A stretch of DNA of 64,000 bases from Psychroserpens sp. (GCF_036960315.1 NZ_JBALVR010000005.1:137182-201181); one strand, 5' to 3'. Shown: positions 10,403 to 16,888, counted from the stretch's first letter. Made by a program: numbers and translations. The notes: generated from the sequence alone by a model not told the origin.

Positions 10403-11560
10403 TTACGAATCCCTGTATGCTGATGGTGTTTGTGAAGTAAACTTCTTAAAAGCGGTATTAAAGGCCGATTTAGAGTTATAACCAACGCGTTCTGCAATGT
10501 CTTCAATGGTTAATTTTTTACCTAAATCAGTTTTTAAAATGGCTTTGGCTTCTTCGACTCTGAAGGATGCTAACATCTCAAAAAAAGACTGATCGAGCTT
10601 TTCATTAATAACTTGAGAGACATGATGTGAACTTTGATGAATTGCTTTAGATAACCCGGATAATGATGCCGTGCTACTTTTATAATATTTTTCACTTTTC
10701 ATTTGGCTTATTATAGCCTCAAGAATATCATTTTTTTGATCGTCTAATAAAGATGATTTTTGATACTTTAAAACAGGCCCTTCCAAAAAACTTGAAACTT
10801 CTTCATAGTAATTAGAACTATTCATGATTTGAACAGTTGCCATAAACAGCATAAATGATAAATATAAATAGATGAAATAGTCGCCAACATCGTTTTTAAA
10901 TATCAATTTAACAATTACAAATATCGCTATAATCGCTAAAAAATGATATAACGAATTGCGTAGAGCCATTAATGTTTTATTGTTGGTTTTCCACAGGTTT
11001 TGATTAAGTTCCCTTGATTTAATAATGAGCAGTCTAACAATTAGTGAAATATAAATAATAAATGAAGCTCCTGTCAATACGTTTACATAATGCCTAATCC
11101 CTAAAGGACTATCTGATATCAATTGAGTTGTATAGATATAAGGAATATCCAATTGCATCACTTCAATATTTGAATTGTATTTAACTGCATCAGGCTGAAT
11201 AAAGAAGAAAACACAATATAATGTCCAAATTATAAACGGTGTAAAATGCAACCAATATACAGGTTTTTTTACGTCTTTAAACTGAGAAACAACAAATAAA
11301 TAAAGAAGAGGCGCAATGATAAAATTAAAGGGTTCAGCAAAATTAGTAATCGATAAAAATTTAAAAATTAACATTGTATAGTTCATCCAGCCTTCTAACA
11401 TTGTTAGTGTCAAAGCTAAAATAAAAAATCCCATTATCAAATTTGGTAAACTTTGTCTCCATGACTTTCGTATATAAAAATAGGACAGAAAAAAGCCAAG
11501 AAATACGCCTATAAAAATTACAGCAGCAATAAAATTGATATTTAAAGGAATGTCTTGCAT
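10403..11560 (-). CDS. Membrane-anchored AraC-family transcriptional regulator
   Basis: TM N-terminus; HHVSQVINE...FRVEEAK...IAERVGYNSKSAFNTAFKK. Confidence 0.88.
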   Translation of the reverse strand: MQDIPLNINFIAAVIFIGVFLGFFLSYFYIRKSWRQSLPNLIMGFFILALTLTMLEGWMNYTMLIFKFLSITNFAEPFNFIIAPLLYLFVVSQFKDVKKPVYWLHFTPFIIWTLYCVFFFIQPDAVKYNSNIEVMQLDIPYIYTTQLISDSPLGIRHYVNVLTGASFIIYISLIVRLLIIKSRELNQNLWKTNNKTLMALRNSLYHFLAIIAIFVIVKLIFKNDVGDYFIYLYLSFMLFMATVQIMNSSNYYEEVSSFLEGPVLKYQKSSLLDDQKNDILEAIISQMKSEKYYKSSTASLSGLSKAIHQSSHHVSQVINEKLDQSFFEMLASFRVEEAKAILKTDLGKKLTIEDIAERVGYNSKSAFNTAFKKFTSQTPSAYRDS

Positions 11561-11666: not shown

Positions 11667-12359
11667 TTACGATGCTGTTTCTATATTGTTATGCATTAGA
11701 GCCATCATTTCAATAGCGACACCAGATGCAGAAGCTGGGTTTTGCCCAGTTACCAAATTCCCATCAGCTACTATAAAAGGATCAAATGGTGTTGTATATG
11801 AAAATTGGCCACCTTGTTTTATTAATTCGGCATCGAGCATAAATGGAATAACATCGCCCAATATATGTTTGTCGATATTTTCTTCAGCTTCAGTAAATGA
11901 ATTGATGCGTTTCCCTTCTAGAAGGTTCTCTCCGTTTGATAAAGTCACATTGAGCAATGCTACAGGACCATGGCAAACAGCACCAACAACACGTCCGCTT
12001 TCATAGACTGTTTTTATGATGTCTTTAACTAAAGGATTTGTTACCATGTCGGTCATAGGACCTAAACCTCCTGGAAAGAAAATGGCATCGTAGGCGTCAA
12101 TATCTACATCACTTAATTTATGACTAAAGTTGAGGCGTTTAAATCCGTTCCCTTCCTTAAAATTTTTGCTTAATATTTGGGTATTGTCGTAGCCTACAAA
12201 TGGAGGAGCATCCCCTTGAATACTTGCAAAGTCGACATTGTATCCTTTATTTGCGAATTCAAAATAAGGATCTGCCACTTCTGAGAATTCATAACCTGCA
12301 GCATGTTTTCCAGTGCCTGTAACGTTAGTACTTGTTACTATAAATAATATGTGTTTCAT
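11667..12359 (-). CDS. DJ-1/PfpI family (type 1 glutamine amidotransferase-like) protein
   Basis: GYEFSEVADPY, FFPGGLGPMTD, GAVCHGP catalytic Cys, VTGQNPAS. Confidence 0.9.
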   Translation of the reverse strand: MKHILFIVTSTNVTGTGKHAAGYEFSEVADPYFEFANKGYNVDFASIQGDAPPFVGYDNTQILSKNFKEGNGFKRLNFSHKLSDVDIDAYDAIFFPGGLGPMTDMVTNPLVKDIIKTVYESGRVVGAVCHGPVALLNVTLSNGENLLEGKRINSFTEAEENIDKHILGDVIPFMLDAELIKQGGQFSYTTPFDPFIVADGNLVTGQNPASASGVAIEMMALMHNNIETAS

Positions 12360-12380
12360 TGTATTGCTTGTTTATAGTTA

Positions 12381-12417
12381 AAACTAAAGGAAGGTTTAAA
12401 ACAGCTCCCTTTAGTTT
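12381..12417. terminator. Inverted repeat between the hydrolase and DJ-1 genes
   Basis: AAACTAAAGG-N17-CCTTTAGTTT, perfect 10-bp stem. Confidence 0.5.
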
Positions 12418-12426
12418 GATTGCTTT

Positions 12427-13179
12427 TTATGCTAATACTGTGTTTCCTGAGGTCCCTACTTTATGCAATGCATTTGCAAGTTTTTCTGGACCCGTTTCTA
12501 ATGGTACATGACCATATTCTAGAGTCACGCTCTCTTCGATTCCCAACATTTTTTGTCCGTGTCTTTGAGCTTTCAATGTAATGACGCGATCTAAAGTTGT
12601 TTCAATATATGCTTTAGGAACACTTCCAAAATTCTCATCTGTTGTAATTACTTTTTCAAAAAATGGAGTTGTTGACTGAAGAACTAATTTTGGTAATACC
12701 TCATCAATTTGAGCTTCTGTGGCTCCACCAAATACAACGTTTAAAATAGTTTCTCTACTCATCGTTGCTGTACTTTTGTCTTCAGAGAAGATTAGATTCT
12801 CTAGAAATTCGCTTCCTTCATCTTCTTCAAAAACCTCAACGGCTGTTTTTCCATCGTAAGGCATTGCTGAAGCTATGAACACTAATTTTTCAATTTTATC
12901 TGGCATTTCTTCAGCTACTTGAGAAATTACAAAGCCCCCAAAACTATGTCCTACTAATACGACTTGACCGGCTGTGTTGTTTAATTCTGCTTTAACGCGA
13001 TTAGCATAAAGAGCCATATTGATTTCAGAAATTGGTGTTTTATCATCACCATGTCCTGGCAAATCGATAGCGTTTACAGTATGCCCGTTTTTTTCTAAAT
13101 AAGCTGTTGTTTCTTCCCATGACCAAGCACCTTCCCATGCGCCATGGATTAATAAAAATGTTTTGTTTGAATTATTCAT
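12427..13179 (-). CDS. Alpha/beta hydrolase (methylesterase/SABP2-like esterase)
   Basis: LLIHGAWEGAWSW, IDLPGHG, GHSFGG nucleophile, DRVI, GHVP. Confidence 0.88.
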   Translation of the reverse strand: MNNSNKTFLLIHGAWEGAWSWEETTAYLEKNGHTVNAIDLPGHGDDKTPISEINMALYANRVKAELNNTAGQVVLVGHSFGGFVISQVAEEMPDKIEKLVFIASAMPYDGKTAVEVFEEDEGSEFLENLIFSEDKSTATMSRETILNVVFGGATEAQIDEVLPKLVLQSTTPFFEKVITTDENFGSVPKAYIETTLDRVITLKAQRHGQKMLGIEESVTLEYGHVPLETGPEKLANALHKVGTSGNTVLA

Positions 13180-13256
13180 TATTTCTGTTTTTTAATTTTA
13201 GTAATTTGTTTAAAAAAAATGGACACCATGATTTTGATGCCCATCTACAATTGCTA

Positions 13257-13577
13257 TTAATCGTAGTGAGGAGAATTCATTCCTCTACTTGGCCCTTCAC
13301 CTTTGTCAACATCAAATAATTTGACAGTTACAGATGCATTAATCGCTCTTCCTTCTTCAACATATGGTCCAGTTGCAAAGTCCCATGCCGTTTCTTCGCT
13401 TTCAAATTCATACAAACCCCCTAAAGTGTTTGTATTCATTCCTACTAACCACGTTTTACGGATTAATCCTGGTACTGTTTTTAATCTTTCATTTACTGGT
13501 TCCCATATTTCTGGTGTGAAATTCGGTACATTTGATTGTAATTCTCCGTATAGGAAAACTCTTTTTGATTTACTCAT
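13257..13577 (-). CDS. ydhR: YdhR-like putative mono-oxygenase (dimeric alpha-beta barrel)
   Basis: VPGLIRKTWL...TLGGLYEFESEETA pattern, 106 aa. Confidence 0.7.
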   Translation of the reverse strand: MSKSKRVFLYGELQSNVPNFTPEIWEPVNERLKTVPGLIRKTWLVGMNTNTLGGLYEFESEETAWDFATGPYVEEGRAINASVTVKLFDVDKGEGPSRGMNSPHYD

Positions 13578-13618
13578 AATTTTTGTTTTTAAATTTATAT
13601 TGTGTTATAATTATAGTA

Positions 13619-13663
13619 CAAATTTGAGGCATATTTGAAGTTTAAAAGTTGTCATATGACAAC
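13619..13663 (-). promoter_or_regulatory. Operator palindrome plus -7-like box, site 1 (upstream of ydhR-hydrolase-DJ-1)
   Basis: GTTGTCATATGACAAC at 13648-13663 (perfect 16-bp palindrome); CAAATTTG (minus strand) at 13619-13626, 21 bp away. Confidence 0.75.
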
Positions 13664-13685
13664 GCTTTGAGCTTTATGCTTTTTT

Positions 13686-14048
13686 TTAGGACAACGCATC
13701 ATTGGTGTGCTTCATAGAACGCGTCCATAGATCTATTTGCTTTATAGCATTTGATAAATCTGTAATTTGATCATTAGAAAAGTGTGGTTCTAAAAGGGTG
13801 TGAATGCTTTCTAATTCGTCGTCGTTATTAGTACTAATGATATAATCTGTTAAAGCAAAAAGTGCGCGTTCTTTTACTGAAAAATGTGGAACGTGATTCC
13901 AAACTGACACTAGGGAAAGTCTTAAGTCTGTTTCTCCAAAATTTTTAAGCTCATTAAAGTGAAGGCTGATAGAATAGTTACAATTATTTAGGTAGCCAAT
14001 TCTAAGTCTGACTAATTCTAAATGTCGAATTTCTATGGTAGAATTCAT
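13686..14048 (-). CDS. Carboxymuconolactone decarboxylase/AhpD-like protein, short and degenerate
   Basis: LELVRLRIGYLNNCNYSISLH...GETDLRLSLVSVW...FSVKERALFALTD follows the AhpD-like fold, but CxxC is CxxS. Confidence 0.65.
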   Translation of the reverse strand: MNSTIEIRHLELVRLRIGYLNNCNYSISLHFNELKNFGETDLRLSLVSVWNHVPHFSVKERALFALTDYIISTNNDDELESIHTLLEPHFSNDQITDLSNAIKQIDLWTRSMKHTNDALS

Positions 14049-14069
14049 GTTTCTATTAGTTGTTTAAAC

Positions 14070-14098
14070 AACAACTCCGACCATGAGCCGGAGTTGTT
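14070..14098 (-). terminator. Rho-independent terminator-like hairpin after the tautomerase gene
   Basis: AACAACTCCG-N9-CGGAGTTGTT, followed on the minus strand by GTTT. Confidence 0.6.
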
Positions 14099-14122
14099 AA
14101 TACTGTTTAAATTGGTTACTTA

Positions 14123-14539
14123 TTACCCTTTAGAGATGGCTTCTCCTATTTCTTCATTAGTCATTGCAATTCCGTCTAAATTCCATCCACCATCTACGGC
14201 ATGAACAACATTTGCATAGATATTATCTTTGGGTTGTTTCCCTCCTGATAATTTATAAATGATGTCTGTAACCTCTGCAAAATGTTGTTTTTGAATAGCT
14301 CTATCTGCAAGTGCAAATGAAGGAACTTTCCATTCTGCCCATGCACCTAAGAATTCTTTACCTCCAGAAAAGGACATGCCTTTAGGTACAATATGTACAT
14401 TGGCTGTGATGTTTGGTGTCATAACGGTATTACCCGTTAAACCATGATTTTTTAAGAAGGAGTCTGTAATTTGTTGAACGGCTTTTTTTTCTGTTCCAAC
14501 AGGCAAAACACCTTCTGTTAATGTTAAAGTAAGTGGCAT
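14123..14539 (-). CDS. Tautomerase superfamily (4-oxalocrotonate tautomerase-like) protein
   Basis: N-terminal Met-Pro (catalytic Pro1), beta-alpha-beta repeat, DNIYANVVHAVDGGW. Confidence 0.75.
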   Translation of the reverse strand: MPLTLTLTEGVLPVGTEKKAVQQITDSFLKNHGLTGNTVMTPNITANVHIVPKGMSFSGGKEFLGAWAEWKVPSFALADRAIQKQHFAEVTDIIYKLSGGKQPKDNIYANVVHAVDGGWNLDGIAMTNEEIGEAISKG

Positions 14540-14585
14540 AATATAAATGTTTTAAAATTGTGAACTTTAGTGCTCATCAACAGTA

Positions 14586-14630
14586 CAAAGATGCGAGGAT
14601 ATGAAAGTTTAAAAGTTGTCATATGACAAC
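14586..14630 (-). promoter_or_regulatory. Operator palindrome plus -7-like box, site 2 (upstream of tautomerase)
   Basis: GTTGTCATATGACAAC at 14615-14630; CATCTTTG (minus strand) at 14586-14593, 21-bp gap. Confidence 0.75.
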
Positions 14631-14653
14631 GTTTTAGAAAAGCATACTTATAA

Positions 14654-15565
14654 TTACATTTTTAATTTTCGCTTTAAAATCATGGAGTAGTATGACATTT
14701 TTCTATTATTAATTTTCATTATTAGCATTCCCGAAATAATAAATAGGGCACTAATAAAATGGTATCTGTATAAATATTCATTAAAAAATACCGCAAATAG
14801 TGCCGTAAACAATGGTACCATATTCATAAAAATCCCTGCTTGATCTGCGCCCGCTTTCTGAACTGAATAATTCCAAAAGTAAAAGACAACCCCTGTTCCT
14901 AAAATCCCTAATCCGCTTATGGCGAACCAAAATTTGGTAGAATGAGATGCAATTTCTTGTATTTCAACAAAGGGCAAAAAGACCAGGATTCCAATAAGCG
15001 TAAAAAGAATTGCTAAAAAAGTGAAGCTCGTATTTTCTAATTCTGAAGAATACTTTTTCACCCAAACATGATGTAATGCAAAAAAGATATTGGCAATTAA
15101 AATTAAGACATCACTATAATTAAAGTCAATATCTTGAAAGCTGGTAATATTGCCTTTTGAAATTAGATACATAACACCTGAAAATGAAATTATAATTCCA
15201 ATTAGATGCTTTGTCTTTAATGAGGTTTTTAATATAATACTTGAAAGCAGTACTGTTATTGCAGGATTAAGACCAATTATAAGTGCTGCATTAATGGCTG
15301 AACTATTCCTTAAACCAAGAAATAAGAATACATTAAATCCAAGTAAACCAATACCGCCAACAAGGGCAGCTCCTTTTATGCTGGATCGCTTTAATTGCAA
15401 AGACTTTAAGTTTTTATATGCTAGTAGAAATAAGGTTATGCCTGCTAAAGTAAAGCGCCATGAAATAGCTTCAATAAAGCTAACTTCGGCTAACACAATT
15501 TTAGAAAGATGAAAATTTAGTCCTAAAAATAGCGTCGCAATTATAAAATAGATATTGGCTTTCAT
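14654..15565 (-). CDS. DMT/EamA family transporter
   Basis: 10 TM helices in two EamA repeats; AALIIGLNPAITVLLS, AGIFMNMVPLFTALFA. Confidence 0.88.
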   Translation of the reverse strand: MKANIYFIIATLFLGLNFHLSKIVLAEVSFIEAISWRFTLAGITLFLLAYKNLKSLQLKRSSIKGAALVGGIGLLGFNVFLFLGLRNSSAINAALIIGLNPAITVLLSSIILKTSLKTKHLIGIIISFSGVMYLISKGNITSFQDIDFNYSDVLILIANIFFALHHVWVKKYSSELENTSFTFLAILFTLIGILVFLPFVEIQEIASHSTKFWFAISGLGILGTGVVFYFWNYSVQKAGADQAGIFMNMVPLFTALFAVFFNEYLYRYHFISALFIISGMLIMKINNRKMSYYSMILKRKLKM

Positions 15566-15596
15566 GTATTATAAAATTTAAGTTTTAATAATACGT

Positions 15597-15641
15597 CAAA
15601 GTTTAGAAGATTTGAAAAAAGAAAAATGGTCTTATGACAAC
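15597..15641 (-). promoter_or_regulatory. Operator (13/16 match) plus -7-like box, site 3 (upstream of EamA)
   Basis: ATGGTCTTATGACAAC at 15626-15641; AAACTTTG (minus strand) at 15597-15604, 21-bp gap. Confidence 0.6.
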
Positions 15642-15666
15642 GCTTTCATTAGAATAGATTCAATTT

Positions 15667-16236
15667 TTAAAGTTGTGCACGCAATTTACTAAGTGTAGAG
15701 TTTGTCATACCTAAATATGACGCCACTGCTTTGCTTGAAATTCTGGTTAATAATTTGGGTTCATGTTCCATAACCCATCGCAGTTTATCTATACCTTCCA
15801 TTCCTAAAAAACTATAAATCCGCATTTGAGAGTGGATAAAAGCAAATTCCATAAATTGATTATATACATATCTAAATTCAGGAATGGTATCGATAAGTTT
15901 AAAAAAACTATCTCTGCTTATAACTAATAAATTAGAGGGTTCTGCAGATACCAAAAAGTCTCTAGATGGTTTATTAAGGACAAAACTTGTTATCGCAGAC
16001 ATAATTTGATCTTCCAACGCAAAATAACCAGTCACTTCATTCCCTTTATTGTCAATTTCATACATGCGAAGACATCCTTCATTTATAAAATAAAAGTTCT
16101 TACACACCTGTCCCGTACGGCATAATACTTCATTACGCTTTGTTTTTAAAGGTTTAAAATGCGAGGTCACTTCTTGAAGTGAAGTGTCATTAATATCGGT
16201 ACGCTCTTTTAAGTAATTTTCAAGCTGATTATACAT
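15667..16236 (-). CDS. Crp/Fnr family transcriptional regulator
   Basis: cNMP-like domain (GQVCKNFYFINEGCLRMY) and C-terminal VASYLGMTNSTLSKLR HTH. Confidence 0.9.
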   Translation of the reverse strand: MYNQLENYLKERTDINDTSLQEVTSHFKPLKTKRNEVLCRTGQVCKNFYFINEGCLRMYEIDNKGNEVTGYFALEDQIMSAITSFVLNKPSRDFLVSAEPSNLLVISRDSFFKLIDTIPEFRYVYNQFMEFAFIHSQMRIYSFLGMEGIDKLRWVMEHEPKLLTRISSKAVASYLGMTNSTLSKLRAQL

Positions 16237-16247
16237 AATGTAGTGGT

Positions 16248-16469
16248 TTACTTATTGTAAGATATCAAACTATTCCCAAAAGACAATCTAGTATTATCTT
16301 TCTCGTAAATTAATATTTTGTTTTTTGTTTTTAAAAGAACCCAAACGCTTATTCCTATAACAGCTCCCATGGCTATACTTTGTCCTAGGTCGTCAATCAC
16401 AATTCCTACAGTTATCCCAATAATAATACCTAATATTATTGTAGGGACTAAATAATTATCAATTTTCAT
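16248..16469 (-). CDS. Small hypothetical membrane protein
   Basis: 73 aa with two Gly-rich hydrophobic helices; 11 bp upstream of the Crp gene. Confidence 0.5.
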   Translation of the reverse strand: MKIDNYLVPTIILGIIIGITVGIVIDDLGQSIAMGAVIGISVWVLLKTKNKILIYEKDNTRLSFGNSLISYNK

Positions 16470-16504
16470 TGCTTCAATTTTATTAATATTTATTTATTAT
16501 TGGT

Positions 16505-16615
16505 TTATAATGTGTAATGTCTTTTAAGATTCCAACGAGCCCTTTTGCTCACGTTAGCGATTTCAAATTTCCTTTGGAAAAATGAATTCACACTTGGTGT
16601 AATGGACTGTTTCAT
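16505..16615 (-). CDS. Putative ~36-aa basic small ORF
   Basis: Hand translation MKQSITPSVNSFFQRKFEIANVSKRARWNLKRHYTL*; starts 74 bp from operator 4, comparable to the 61-76 bp at sites 1-3. Confidence 0.3.
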   Translation of the reverse strand: MKQSITPSVNSFFQRKFEIANVSKRARWNLKRHYTL

Positions 16616-16659
16616 GATTCTTTGTTTTAAGTCGTAAACTTTATTGCTCATCAACAGTA

Positions 16660-16704
16660 CAAAGATGAGAGCTTATGAAAGTGTAAAAGTTGTCATATGA
16701 CAAT
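16660..16704 (-). promoter_or_regulatory. Operator (15/16 match) plus -7-like box, site 4
   Basis: GTTGTCATATGACAAT at 16689-16704; CATCTTTG (minus strand) at 16660-16667, 21-bp gap. Confidence 0.72.
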
Positions 16705-16888
16705 GTTTTATATAGTATATTATTGAATGTGGTAAAATGCAGTCCATCTAATTTTCTTCTTTTATCACCTAGAAGTGTTATCTAAGTAAATAGATAAAAG
16801 TTGTAATCGCAAAATTTAATGATCTTCGGGATTGGTTAACCATCATACAAGAAAAATATCGCTTGTATAATTGAGCTCAATATAAAAA

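What the first reader, a model, noticed from the sequence alone, without database searches (positions are those of the whole stretch)
13619..16704. Four-site regulon with the palindrome GTTGTCATATGACAAC and an invariant 21-bp spacing to a weak -7 box
Seen: palindrome copies at 13648 (16/16), 14615 (16/16), 15626 (13/16) and 16689 (15/16), each 61-76 bp upstream of a minus-strand start codon. In all four, an nnnnTTTG box lies exactly 21 bp toward the gene (CAAATTTG, CATCTTTG, AAACTTTG, CATCTTTG). Known: the Bacteroidota housekeeping promoter is TTTG(-33)/TAnnTTTG(-7), and Crp/Fnr proteins bind palindromes and activate from sites overlapping the upstream element. Inference: this is the operator of the embedded Crp/Fnr protein (15667..16236), which activates promoters whose -7 box lacks the canonical TA. 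The regulon can be read directly from the sequence and is probably uncharacterised.
Basis: partly seen in the sequence, partly recalled or inferred. Interest (0 to 1): 0.7.

Follow-up and report, generated by a model that had tools for sequence, protein, structure and literature searches.

The report
Crp-type activator boxes, detox gene cluster
Four (genome-wide five) copies of a 16-base palindrome sit at one exact distance from Bacteroidota promoter boxes and are almost certainly the docking sites of the neighbouring, unstudied Crp-like regulator, which switches on a horizontally mobile set of small detoxification-type enzymes; it is a clean new example of a familiar control logic, with an added conserved RNA hairpin at the start of the target messages.

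Summary
All four palindromes lie at the stated positions with the stated mismatches, each 21 bp from an nAnnTTTG box. A matrix trained only on other genomes finds exactly five such promoters in this 4.25-Mb genome; the fifth is on another contig.

- **Co-occurrence:** all 40 loci with 63-88% orthologs of the embedded 189-aa regulator, from three Bacteroidota orders, carry at least one TTGTC-N4-GACAA-type site (96 in all). 72 of the 96 have TTTG at the identical offset.
- **Geometry:** with the sigma-A box at -12..-5, the dyad centre falls at -41.5, the class II Crp/Fnr position.
- **Specificity:** recognition-helix residues covary with the half-site across paralogs. The neighbouring AraC gene is absent from all 40 loci.

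New findings: target promoters lack the T of TAnnTTTG (3/59 have it) while autoregulatory ones keep it (16/17). A covarying 5'-terminal RNA hairpin, with no Rfam match, follows many target promoters and none of the regulator's own.

The effector is unknown. The scan has reported the same geometry before for other Bacteroidota Crp/Fnr paralogs. This is a new member of a known kind.

The parts
16689..16704 (.). Operator 4 (GTTGTCATATGACAAT, 15/16). Heads the sORF-TM73-regulator operon, giving positive autoregulation.
   Evidence: PWM score 60.3
16660..16667 (-). -7 box of promoter 4, CATCTTTG. Predicted TSS at 16655 (minus strand).
   Evidence: box position -12..-5 taken from PMC9723704
16631..16655 (-). 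5'-terminal leader RNA hairpin, GUUGAUGAGC-AAUAAA-GUUUACGAC.
   Evidence: covariance model hit of 43.8 bits at window 16622-16657
16505..16615 (-). 36-aa basic small ORF (MKQSITPSVNSFFQRKFEIANVSKRARWNLKRHYTL), first cistron after operator 4.
   Evidence: similar sORFs with a KRxxWNx[KR]R tail occur in loci L025 and L026, two of them after TTGTC sites
16248..16469 (-). 73-aa predicted membrane protein with no family match, between the sORF and the regulator.
   Evidence: no homolog in the 40 ortholog loci
15667..16236 (-). 189-aa short Crp/Fnr-superfamily regulator: cNMP-binding-like barrel, long helix, all-helical HTH ending at the recognition helix.
   Evidence: Pfam PF00027 E=1.6e-11; model pLDDT 91.6; Foldseek TMq 0.78-0.80 to CRP-DNA and FNR; profile alignment to the FNR HTH
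15626..15641 (.). Operator 3 (13/16; the promoter-proximal half is degenerate), 26 nt after the regulator's stop codon, upstream of the EamA gene.
   Evidence: PWM score 41.7; sites just past the regulator's stop are common in ortholog loci
15597..15604 (-). -7 box of promoter 3, AAACTTTG. Predicted TSS at 15592.
14654..15565 (-). EamA/DMT-family transporter (303 aa).
   Evidence: present in 17 of 40 ortholog loci
14615..14630 (.). Operator 2 (16/16).
   Evidence: PWM score 62.7
14586..14593 (-). -7 box of promoter 2, CATCTTTG. Predicted TSS at 14581.
14557..14581 (-). 5'-terminal leader RNA hairpin, GUUGAUGAGC-ACUAAA-GUUCACAAU.
   Evidence: covariance model hit of 44.5 bits at window 14548-14583
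14123..14539 (-). 138-aa tautomerase-superfamily protein (cis-CaaD/Cg10062-like fold, invariant Pro after Met1).
   Evidence: present in 28 of 40 ortholog loci
13686..14048 (-). Carboxymuconolactone decarboxylase (AhpD-like) family protein, second gene of operon 2.
   Evidence: present in 10 of 40 loci
13648..13663 (.). Operator 1 (16/16).
   Evidence: PWM score 59.8
13619..13626 (-). -7 box of promoter 1, CAAATTTG. Predicted TSS at 13614; no leader hairpin here.
13257..13577 (-). YdhR-like (dimeric alpha-beta barrel) protein, 106 aa.
   Evidence: present in 12 of 40 loci
12427..13179 (-). Alpha/beta-hydrolase (250 aa).
   Evidence: present in 18 of 40 loci
11667..12359 (-). DJ-1/PfpI-family protein (230 aa), last gene of operon 1 and the most constant partner of the regulator.
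   Evidence: present in 33 of 40 loci. Nucleotide similarity to other loci ends here, at 11676

Best explanation
The palindrome (full consensus AAAnnGTTGTCATAnGACAACnTTT) is the operator of the embedded 189-aa short Crp/Fnr-superfamily regulator (15667-16236). A dimer bound there is centred at -41.5 relative to the start site of a sigma-A promoter that has no -33 element and, at target genes, a weakened -7 box ([C/G/A]AnnTTTG). The regulator therefore most likely works as a class II-type activator that contacts RNA polymerase, presumably once an unknown small-molecule effector occupies its cNMP-like barrel.

In this genome it drives five transcription units:
- sORF-TM73-regulator (positive autoregulation)
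- the EamA exporter
- tautomerase-like protein + CMD
- YdhR-like protein + alpha/beta-hydrolase + DJ-1
- on another contig, a beta-lactamase-fold hydrolase, SDR, deaminase, RidA-like protein and quinone-reductase operon

Two of the window's four target mRNAs begin with a conserved stem-loop whose first paired base is the predicted +1. I infer that it stabilises the mRNA or is otherwise used after transcription.

What is shown: the sites, their spacing, their conservation, their co-occurrence with the regulator, the helix/half-site covariation, and the RNA covariation. What is inferred: binding, the TSS positions, activation rather than repression, the effector, and the hairpin's role.
For: (1) Significance and completeness. 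0 of 100 shuffles give 4 matches. A PWM trained only on sites from other genomes finds exactly 5 positions among 8.5 million in G000, scoring 40.8-62.7, with nothing else above 12.
(2) Co-occurrence. All 40 loci with 63-88% orthologs (Flavobacteriales, Cytophagales, Chitinophagales) carry at least one TTGTC-N4-GACAA-type site. There are 46 exact composite sites in 473 kb of these loci, against 14 in 200 whole genomes of the family. Four of the 5 genomes with a >=73% ortholog have the composite motif.
(3) Geometry. 72 of 96 sites have TTTG at offset exactly 25 and one at 26, all in the regulator's orientation. The spacer is unconserved, while the palindrome, the AAA/TTT flanks and the A of the -7 box are 1.3-2.0 bits.
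(4) Position. With TAnnTTTG at -12..-5 (PMC9723704) the dyad centre is at -41.5, and no TTG is present at the -33 position.
(5) Autoregulation. Sites pile up 51-100 bp upstream of the regulator's start (18) and just past its stop (13).
(6) Promoter dichotomy. 16 of 17 autoregulatory promoters have TA in the -7 box, against 3 of 59 target promoters; Fisher p=1.4e-12.
(7) Specificity. Other short Crp paralogs in G000 have their own palindromes in the same geometry just past their stop codons (TTAAG-N4-CTTAA; also GTAAC-N4-GTTAC beside a longer paralog). TTGTC-associated regulators, including 19-26% identical ones in other genomes, share [N/D]-[S/T]-[S/T] at the recognition-helix positions, which align with FNR's V-E-T stretch. 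No other G000 short paralog has this signature.
(8) Alternative regulator excluded. The AraC homolog is in 0 of 40 loci.
(9) Fold. Model pLDDT 91.6; TMq 0.78-0.80 to CRP-DNA complexes and FNR.
(10) Hairpin. 90.7% of cells paired against 79.9% in shuffles (0/500); 8 of 9 pairs have changes on both sides against 3.3 (0/500); slide controls give 27-44%; many G-U pairs. The covariance model hits only the two leaders in all of G000 and 44 places in related loci. All 44 are in the regulator's orientation, and every hit compared with the site list starts 46 nt after a palindrome.
Against: The -41.5 figure depends on transferring the box-to-TSS distance from Flavobacterium psychrophilum. A site overlapping the -33 region could also repress. 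Sites 2 and 4 are a duplicated module, so within this window there are effectively three independent promoters. Related genomes are not independent samples, and the cluster seems to move as a unit, so part of the co-occurrence is linkage by descent. The same core half-site is used by a second, distant paralog clade elsewhere, so the half-site alone does not identify the regulator. The 37 leader sequences used for the covariation test excluded leaders without an alignable hairpin, which inflates the percentage paired but not the slide controls.
Confidence: 0.72

Rival explanations
1. The embedded regulator binds the palindrome but acts as a repressor (or ligand-released repressor), blocking RNA polymerase at the -33 region rather than recruiting it.
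For: The site overlaps the position where a -33 element would lie. Small detoxification clusters are often controlled by ligand-released repressors (general knowledge). Autoregulatory promoters carry a full TAnnTTTG box, which would be active without help.
Against: A repressor needs only overlap, not single-base-pair precision, yet 72 of 73 boxes at offset 25 or 26 are at exactly 25. Target promoters lack both a -33 element and the T of the -7 box, as expected of activator-dependent promoters. The -41.5 centre is the canonical class II activator position, and the family mostly activates from it (established knowledge of CRP/FNR).
Confidence: 0.13
2. A different protein binds the palindrome: another of the roughly 12 short Crp paralogs in this genome, or an unrelated regulator. 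The embedded Crp gene would then be just one more target.
For: The genome encodes 19 cNMP-domain proteins. TTGTC-N4-GACAA sites occur next to a different, 19-26% identical paralog in genomes that lack this regulator. The fifth site lies about 1 kb from a TetR gene.
Against: No other G000 short paralog has the [N/D]-[S/T]-[S/T] recognition-helix signature shared by TTGTC-associated regulators. Other paralogs have their own distinct palindromes next to their own genes. The AraC gene is absent from all 40 ortholog loci, while the Crp gene is the only constant regulator there.
Confidence: 0.08
3. The similarity is only a promoter module copied within a horizontally transferred cluster, conserved by descent and not a regulatory site.
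For: Promoters 2 and 4 are about 88% identical over about 75 bp. The whole cluster 11676-16249 shares 70-83% nucleotide identity with loci in other genera.
Against: Across 84 promoters the spacer is uninformative (0.1-0.4 bits) while the palindrome, its flanks and the -7 box are near-invariant, which is the footprint of selection on contact points rather than recent copying. The same composite occurs in front of unrelated genes, on another contig, and with distant paralogs.
Confidence: 0.04

Closest known systems
E. coli FNR and CRP at class II promoters (FNR box TTGAT-N4-ATCAA; site centred at -41.5)
   Same: 5-N4-5 palindrome with A/T-rich flanks in a 22-24 bp site. Inferred centre at -41.5, overlapping and replacing the upstream promoter element. 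Two-domain fold (TMq 0.78 to FNR, 0.80 to a CRP-DNA complex). The HTH aligns with FNR's.
   Different: The half-site is TTGTC. The recognition positions are N-S-T...K in place of V-E-T...R. There is no FNR cysteine cluster. The protein is about 20-60 residues shorter than the solved CRP/FNR chains it aligns with, ends at the recognition helix, and has no beta-hairpin wing in the model. The promoters are Bacteroidota sigma-A type (-7 TAnnTTTG). The effector is unknown.
HcpR2, predicted Crp/Fnr regulators of hcp in Bacteroides and others (Rodionov et al. 2005, PMC1274295)
   Same: A Crp/Fnr paralog in Bacteroidota whose 5-N4-5 palindrome and small local regulon were inferred by comparative genomics, with helix/motif covariation.
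   Different: The HcpR2 motif is GTAAC-N4-GTTAC and its target is hcp. Here the motif is TTGTC-N4-GACAA, the genome has no hcp, and the targets are tautomerase, DJ-1, YdhR, esterase, CMD and EamA genes.
PDB 3dn7, 'cyclic nucleotide binding regulatory protein' of Cytophaga hutchinsonii (deposited under a generic name; I found no functional study)
   Same: Closest solved relative (profile E=2.7e-42; 28-29% identity, TMt 0.90-0.91). Same short length and the same ...ASYLGxT-xxx-LSxxRK C-terminus.
   Different: I found no function, operator or regulon described for it. Its recognition positions are P-E-Y, like the TTAAG-associated paralogs. The solved chains stop at about residue 148, so the DNA-binding domain is not seen.
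BT_4338, the CRP-like global regulator of Bacteroides thetaiotaomicron
   Same: A Crp-like activator in Bacteroidota, described as having ChIP-seq-defined sites (as cited in bioRxiv 10.1101/2023.02.16.528795).
   Different: It is a global carbohydrate-utilisation regulator; this one is local, patchily distributed and cluster-bound. I did not compare the sequences or motifs.
5'-terminal stem-loops that stabilise bacterial mRNAs (e.g. the E. coli ompA leader; established knowledge, not tested here)
   Same: A hairpin whose first paired base is at or within 1-2 nt of the predicted 5' end.
   Different: No Rfam family matches. It is confined to one regulon and fixed 46 nt from the operator. Its loop has a conserved A...A with an invariant C-G closing pair, which may instead indicate a bound factor.

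Membership tests
Crp/Fnr superfamily of transcription factors | N-terminal cNMP-binding-like beta-barrel domain | tested here: met
   Pfam PF00027, E=1.6e-11, 44.4 bits against a cut-off of 27.5. The model has an eight-stranded barrel at residues 28-107.
Crp/Fnr superfamily of transcription factors | [quoted passage not shown] | tested here: met
   Model helix 119-140, then helices 168-174 and 179-188. Foldseek TMq 0.78-0.80 over 186-202 columns to Mtb CRP-DNA, GlxR, Clr-DNA and FNR. The profile aligns residues 15-186 to FNR including GNYLGLTVETISRLL (E=2e-7). The Pfam HTH model itself did not hit at E<=0.01.
Crp/Fnr superfamily of transcription factors | Beta-hairpin 'wing' after the recognition helix (typical of solved CRP/FNR structures, by my recollection; not part of the Pfam definition) | tested here: not met
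   The protein ends 1-2 residues after the recognition helix, and the model's C-terminal domain is all-helical. About 12 paralogs in G000 and 3dn7 share this. I therefore file it as a short, wingless subfamily of the superfamily, not as a canonical CRP or FNR.
FNR proper (oxygen-sensing) | N-terminal cysteine cluster ligating a [4Fe-4S] centre | tested here: not met
   There are no cysteines before residue 39. The conserved Cys are C45 and C55 inside the barrel. The alignment to FNR starts at FNR residue 43.
CRP proper (cAMP-sensing) | Canonical phosphate-binding cassette (G-E ... R-[ST]-A) | tested here: inconclusive
   By eye the region reads FALED...KPSRDF, with Q88-K89-P90-S91-R92-D93 at least 90% conserved. 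An Arg is kept but the G-E and [ST]-A residues are not. No ligand test was possible.
Class II (overlapping) activator-dependent promoter | Activator site centred near -41.5 relative to the transcription start | tested here: inconclusive
   The centre is 36.5 bp upstream of the G of TTTG in all five G000 sites and in 72 of 96 ortholog sites. With the box at -12..-5 (PMC9723704) this gives -41.5. No TSS data could be obtained.
Class II (overlapping) activator-dependent promoter | Poor core promoter that depends on the activator | tested here: inconclusive
   No -33 TTG at the expected place. The T of TAnnTTTG is present in only 3 of 59 target promoters against 16 of 17 autoregulatory ones. Dependence itself needs an experiment.
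HcpR2 regulon | GTAAC-N4-GTTAC operator upstream of hcp | tested here: not met
   The motif here is TTGTC-N4-GACAA, and there is no Prismane/hcp gene in G000.
Any described RNA family (for the leader hairpin) | Match to an Rfam covariance model | tested here: not met
   Only a chance mir-125 hit at E=0.92 in 13400-16800.

The most novel reading that the evidence does not exclude
This could be one readable instance of a Bacteroidota-wide design. In it, an expanded family of short, wingless Crp-like sensors (about 12 per genome here) each runs a private mini-regulon of small detoxification enzymes through class II geometry on -7-type promoters. This particular cassette would be a self-contained, horizontally mobile 'sense and detoxify' unit with three built-in layers: T-less, activator-dependent target promoters; a canonical-box autoregulatory promoter; and a regulon-specific 5'-terminal RNA hairpin serving as a second, post-transcriptional control point (a bound factor or ligand-responsive stability element) rather than a passive stabiliser.
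Probability: 0.3. Interest if true: 0.7.

Novelty: new member of a known kind. Interest (0 to 1): 0.55.

Why it matters
Transcription control in Bacteroidota outside polysaccharide utilisation is poorly mapped, and these genomes carry a dozen or more unassigned 'Crp/Fnr family' genes each. Here regulator, operator, promoter geometry and full regulon can be read from sequence, with a clean genome-wide separation: five sites and nothing else. The result gives an assignable function to a subfamily known only from structure 3dn7, which is deposited under a generic name. It also provides a specificity code (recognition-helix positions against half-site) that could be extended to the paralogs. It indicates that the -41.5 activator geometry carries over to the unusual Bacteroidota sigma-A promoter. 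The T-less against canonical -7 box dichotomy and the regulon-specific leader hairpin are directly testable design features. The gene set (tautomerase, DJ-1, YdhR, esterase, CMD, RidA-like protein, quinone reductase, exporter) suggests a response to a reactive small molecule that is still to be identified.

Tried and rejected
- **AraC as the regulator:** the AraC gene at 10403-11560 has a homolog in 0 of 40 ortholog loci, and nucleotide similarity to those loci stops at 11676. Rejected.
- **Exact 14-mer in relatives:** TTGTCATATGACAA is absent from 40 relatives. This first looked like non-conservation, but the orthologous sites simply vary in the central four bases or by one mismatch.
- **HcpR2 as a positive control:** the GTAAC-N4-GTTAC boxes next to the C32 paralog match the published HcpR2 motif, but the genome has no hcp, so this could not serve as a control.
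- **Integron or attC-like repeat** (suggested by neighbouring first-reader notes): GTTGTC does not fit GTTRRRY, and the conservation pattern is that of a protein site. Not pursued further.
- **Hairpin as a DNA operator:** argued against by frequent G-U pairs and by arm sequences that change while pairing is kept.
- **Hairpin as an intrinsic terminator or attenuator:** unlikely, since the stem is only about -6.5 kcal/mol and is followed by 2-4 U.
- **Rfam:** no family matches.
- **Sequence searches for the 138-aa protein:** only 3 of 12 members hit Pfam Tautomerase weakly and there was no PDB sequence hit. The fold search settled it.
- **Literature:** six searches found nothing on the motif, the regulon or the subfamily.

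Full report
**Observation.** The palindrome GTTGTCATATGACAAC occurs at window 13648 and 14615 (perfect), 16689 (one mismatch) and 15626 (three mismatches). No set of four matches arose in 100 dinucleotide-preserving shuffles. Read on the minus strand, each copy is followed after exactly 21 nt by an 8-mer ending in TTTG: CAAATTTG, CATCTTTG, AAACTTTG and CATCTTTG. Start codons lie 71, 76, 61 and 74 bp from the palindromes. The fourth belongs to a 36-aa ORF, not a long one. An alignment of the four upstream regions shows that conservation extends beyond the palindrome, and that promoters 2 and 4 are near-duplicates through their leaders.

**Genes.** All genes in the cluster are on the minus strand.
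- Operator 4 heads a 36-aa sORF, a 73-aa membrane protein and a 189-aa protein with a cNMP-binding domain.
- Operator 3 heads an EamA transporter.
- Operator 2 heads an unannotated 138-aa protein and a CMD-family protein.
- Operator 1 heads a YdhR-like protein, an alpha/beta-hydrolase and a DJ-1/PfpI protein.

The 138-aa protein has an invariant Pro after Met1 and only weak Tautomerase hits by sequence. Its model matches cis-CaaD/Cg10062-type tautomerases (TMq about 0.7, E about 1e-7).

**Whole genome.** The window is G000:C30:137182-201181, in a 4.25-Mb, 34% GC genome. At two mismatches or fewer there are five palindromes. One of these, C22:197433, has no TTTG box at the fixed offset. The only good site outside the cluster is C3:4368, which has the same spacing to GAAATTTG. 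None of the 15 weak (2-3 mismatch) hits has TTTG at that offset. The background TTTG frequency makes five of five about 5e-11. A matrix built only from sites in other genomes scores exactly these five positions at 40.8-62.7, with nothing else above 12 among 8.5 million positions. The fifth promoter heads a beta-lactamase-fold hydrolase, an SDR, a CMP/dCMP-deaminase-like protein, a YjgF/RidA-like protein and a flavodoxin-like quinone reductase.

**Does the site belong to this regulator?** The genome has 19 cNMP-domain proteins, so this needed testing.
- *Distribution of the ortholog.* It is patchy: 1 of 24 genomes searched from the same genus has a close one (76%), and 5 of 200 genera of the family have one at 73% identity or more. 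Orthologs of 63-88% nevertheless occur in Flavobacteriales, Cytophagales, Chitinophaga and Chryseolinea.
- *Sites in ortholog loci.* All 40 such loci contain at least one TTGTC-N4-GACAA-type site. Of 96 sites with at most one mismatch, 72 have TTTG at offset exactly 25 in the regulator's orientation and one at 26. They cluster 51-100 bp upstream of the regulator's start (18 sites) and just past its stop (13 sites).
- *Enrichment.* The loci hold 46 exact composite sites in 473 kb, against 14 in 200 whole genomes of the family, where the reversed-pattern control gave one hit.
- *Other regulators.* The AraC gene next to the cluster is absent from all 40 loci. DJ-1 (33 loci), the tautomerase-like gene (28), the hydrolase (18), EamA (17), YdhR (12) and CMD (10) recur, all co-oriented with the regulator.

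**Exceptions.** Six genomes have the composite motif but no ortholog. In four of them the site lies immediately after the stop codon of a different short Crp-like gene, 19-26% identical to ours, whose downstream genes encode glyoxalase/VOC-family proteins. Within G000, perfect 5-N4-5 palindromes are enriched at exactly this offset from ANNTTTG (57, against 30-48 at 20 other offsets). Other paralogs carry their own boxes just past their own stop codons: TTAAG-N4-CTTAA at C8:1325 and C11:658312, and GTAAC-N4-GTTAC at C32:41210 and 41402.

**Recognition helix.** The short paralogs end in ...ASYLGxT-xxx-LSxxRK. TTGTC-associated proteins have N-S-T (this clade) or D-T/S-S (the distant clade) at the variable positions, and TTAAG-associated ones have P-E/Q-F/Y. 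No other G000 short paralog has [N/D]-[S/T]-[S/T]. A profile of the orthologs aligns through the HTH of solved FNR, placing N-S-T...K opposite FNR's V-E-T...R. From memory, those are the FNR and CRP DNA-contacting positions (CRP 180/181/185); the CRP positions and their covariation with motifs are documented in PMC1274295.

**Mechanism.** The consensus of 84 promoters is AAAnnGTTGTCATAnGACAACnTTT, then an uninformative spacer, then nAnnTTTG with an invariant A. In Flavobacterium psychrophilum the sigma-A box TAnnTTTG occupies -12 to -5 (PMC9723704). Transferring that puts the dyad centre at -41.5, the class II position of CRP and FNR (established knowledge). It also leaves no TTG where a -33 element should be.

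Single-base-pair constancy of the spacing argues for a protein-polymerase contact rather than simple occlusion. Target promoters almost never have the T of TAnnTTTG (3 of 59), whereas promoters directly upstream of the regulator gene almost always do (16 of 17; Fisher p=1.4e-12). The latter also have more degenerate palindromes. That fits basal expression of the sensor and activator-dependent expression of its targets. Several further loci have the palindrome upstream of the regulator with a TAnnTTCG-type box at the same spacing. In this window and its closest relatives, the regulator is instead the last gene of a target-type operon that begins with a small basic ORF.

**The protein.** The model is confident (pLDDT 91.6, pTM 0.84). 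It shows a beta-barrel, a long helix and an all-helical C-terminal domain ending at the recognition helix, with no wing. It superposes on CRP-DNA complexes, GlxR, Clr and FNR at TMq 0.74-0.80. Its nearest solved relative is 3dn7, deposited under a generic name, whose DNA-binding domain is not resolved. There is no FNR cysteine cluster. By eye the cAMP phosphate-binding cassette is not canonical. The effector is unknown.

Many target leaders contain a hairpin whose first paired base is the predicted +1. It has an outer 4-bp stem, a one-base bulge, an inner 5-bp stem, and a 6-nt loop beginning and ending in A with an invariant C-G closing pair.
- *Covariation.* On 37 leaders, four of five inner pairs show compensatory changes; for example one pair reads AU 18, GC 14, GU 5, broken 0. 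Overall, 90.7% of cells pair against 79.9% in shuffles (0/500). Eight of nine pairs have double changes against 3.3 (0/500), and slid controls give 27-44%. Frequent G-U pairs point to RNA rather than a DNA operator.
- *Caveat.* The 37 leaders were taken from non-regulator promoters that aligned without indels, so selection was partly by alignability.
- *Distribution.* A covariance model hits only the leaders of promoters 2 and 4 in all of G000 (44.5 and 43.8 bits; the next hit is 24 bits). It hits 44 places in related loci, all in the regulator's orientation; every hit compared with the site list starts 46 nt after a palindrome. There are none beside the distant TTGTC paralogs.
- *Where it is absent.* It is missing from all 16 promoters scored as the regulator's own (mean MFE -0.95 against -6.9 kcal/mol for tautomerase promoters).
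- *Known families.* No Rfam family matches.
- *Role.* A 5'-terminal stem-loop is a classic mRNA stabiliser (established knowledge). That role is inferred here, not shown.

**Evolution.** Nucleotide similarity to other loci covers exactly 11676-16249 (DJ-1 through the regulator) plus 16613-16711, and the latter matches other genomes' tautomerase promoters. Promoter 4 is therefore a copied module placed in front of the sORF-TM73-regulator unit. Identity to a Psychroserpens locus is 83% over 3 kb, and orthologs in another order (84%) are closer than the only close ortholog found in the same genus (76%). That indicates horizontal spread of the cluster. GC content is not distinctive.

**Prior knowledge.** Searches for the motif, for Crp/Fnr regulators in Bacteroidota and for 3dn7 found no description of this regulon. 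The closest published analogue is the predicted HcpR2 regulon, with a different box and target. Earlier notes of this scan report the same fixed geometry for other Bacteroidota Crp/Fnr paralogs with other boxes and gene sets, but not this regulator.

**Verdict.** This is a new, cleanly delimited member of the Crp/Fnr class II kind, belonging to a short wingless subfamily. It comes with two testable extras: the -7 box dichotomy and the regulon-specific leader hairpin.

Noticed in passing
G000:C3:4368-4383 (locus L001, minus orientation): Fifth operator of the same regulon on another contig (CTTGTCATATGACAAC, GAAATTTG box at the same spacing). It heads a beta-lactamase-fold hydrolase, an SDR, a CMP/dCMP-deaminase-like protein, a YjgF/RidA-like protein and a Flavodoxin_2 quinone reductase. 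A TetR gene lies about 1 kb upstream.
   Followed up: partly
window 14557-14581 and 16631-16655 (minus strand); 44 further copies in loci L021, L024-L063: Conserved 5'-terminal leader RNA hairpin with compensatory changes and no Rfam match. It is confined to target promoters of this regulon and absent from the regulator's own promoters.
   Followed up: yes
G000:C8:1325, C11:658312, C32:41210 and C32:41402: Other Crp paralogs of this genome have their own palindromes in the same -41.5 geometry just past their stop codons: TTAAG-N4-CTTAA (two short paralogs) and GTAAC-N4-GTTAC (a longer paralog). The latter equals the published HcpR2 box, but here it precedes rhodanese-like and cytochrome-c-like genes, and the genome has no hcp.
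   Followed up: partly
window 16505-16615 (minus); L025:1160, L026:3281, L026:12231: Small basic ORFs (36-41 aa) sharing a C-terminal KRxxWNx[KR]R motif. In the window and in L026 they open the operon that ends with the regulator. Whether they are translated, and what they do, is unknown.
   Followed up: partly
loci L068, L069, L070, L073 (genomes G234, G167, G067, G100): A distant short Crp clade (19-26% identical; recognition helix D-T/S-S) also uses TTGTC-N4-GACAA at the same geometry immediately after its stop codon. It controls small glyoxalase/VOC-family and DUF1801 proteins.
   Followed up: partly
window 11676-16249 and 16613-16711: Nucleotide similarity to clusters in other genera and another order ends sharply at these coordinates. 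Orthologs in Cytophagales are closer than the only close same-genus ortholog found, so the cluster appears to be horizontally mobile. Promoter 4 is a copy of the tautomerase-gene promoter module.
   Followed up: partly
ortholog loci L033, L035, L050, L055, L056 (about 75 bp upstream of the regulator start): Autoregulatory promoters with the palindrome at the usual spacing but a TAnnTTCG box instead of TAnnTTTG, a recurrent -7 variant.
   Followed up: no
G000:C29:335005 and 336051; C31:165032 and 165193; C7:15993 and C22:338413: Further repeated perfect 5-N4-5 palindromes at the same offset from ANNTTTG (TACGG-N4-CCGTA, ACGTA-N4-TACGT, ATGAT-N4-ATCAT) with no cNMP-domain gene found adjacent. 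They may be other regulons or chance.
   Followed up: no
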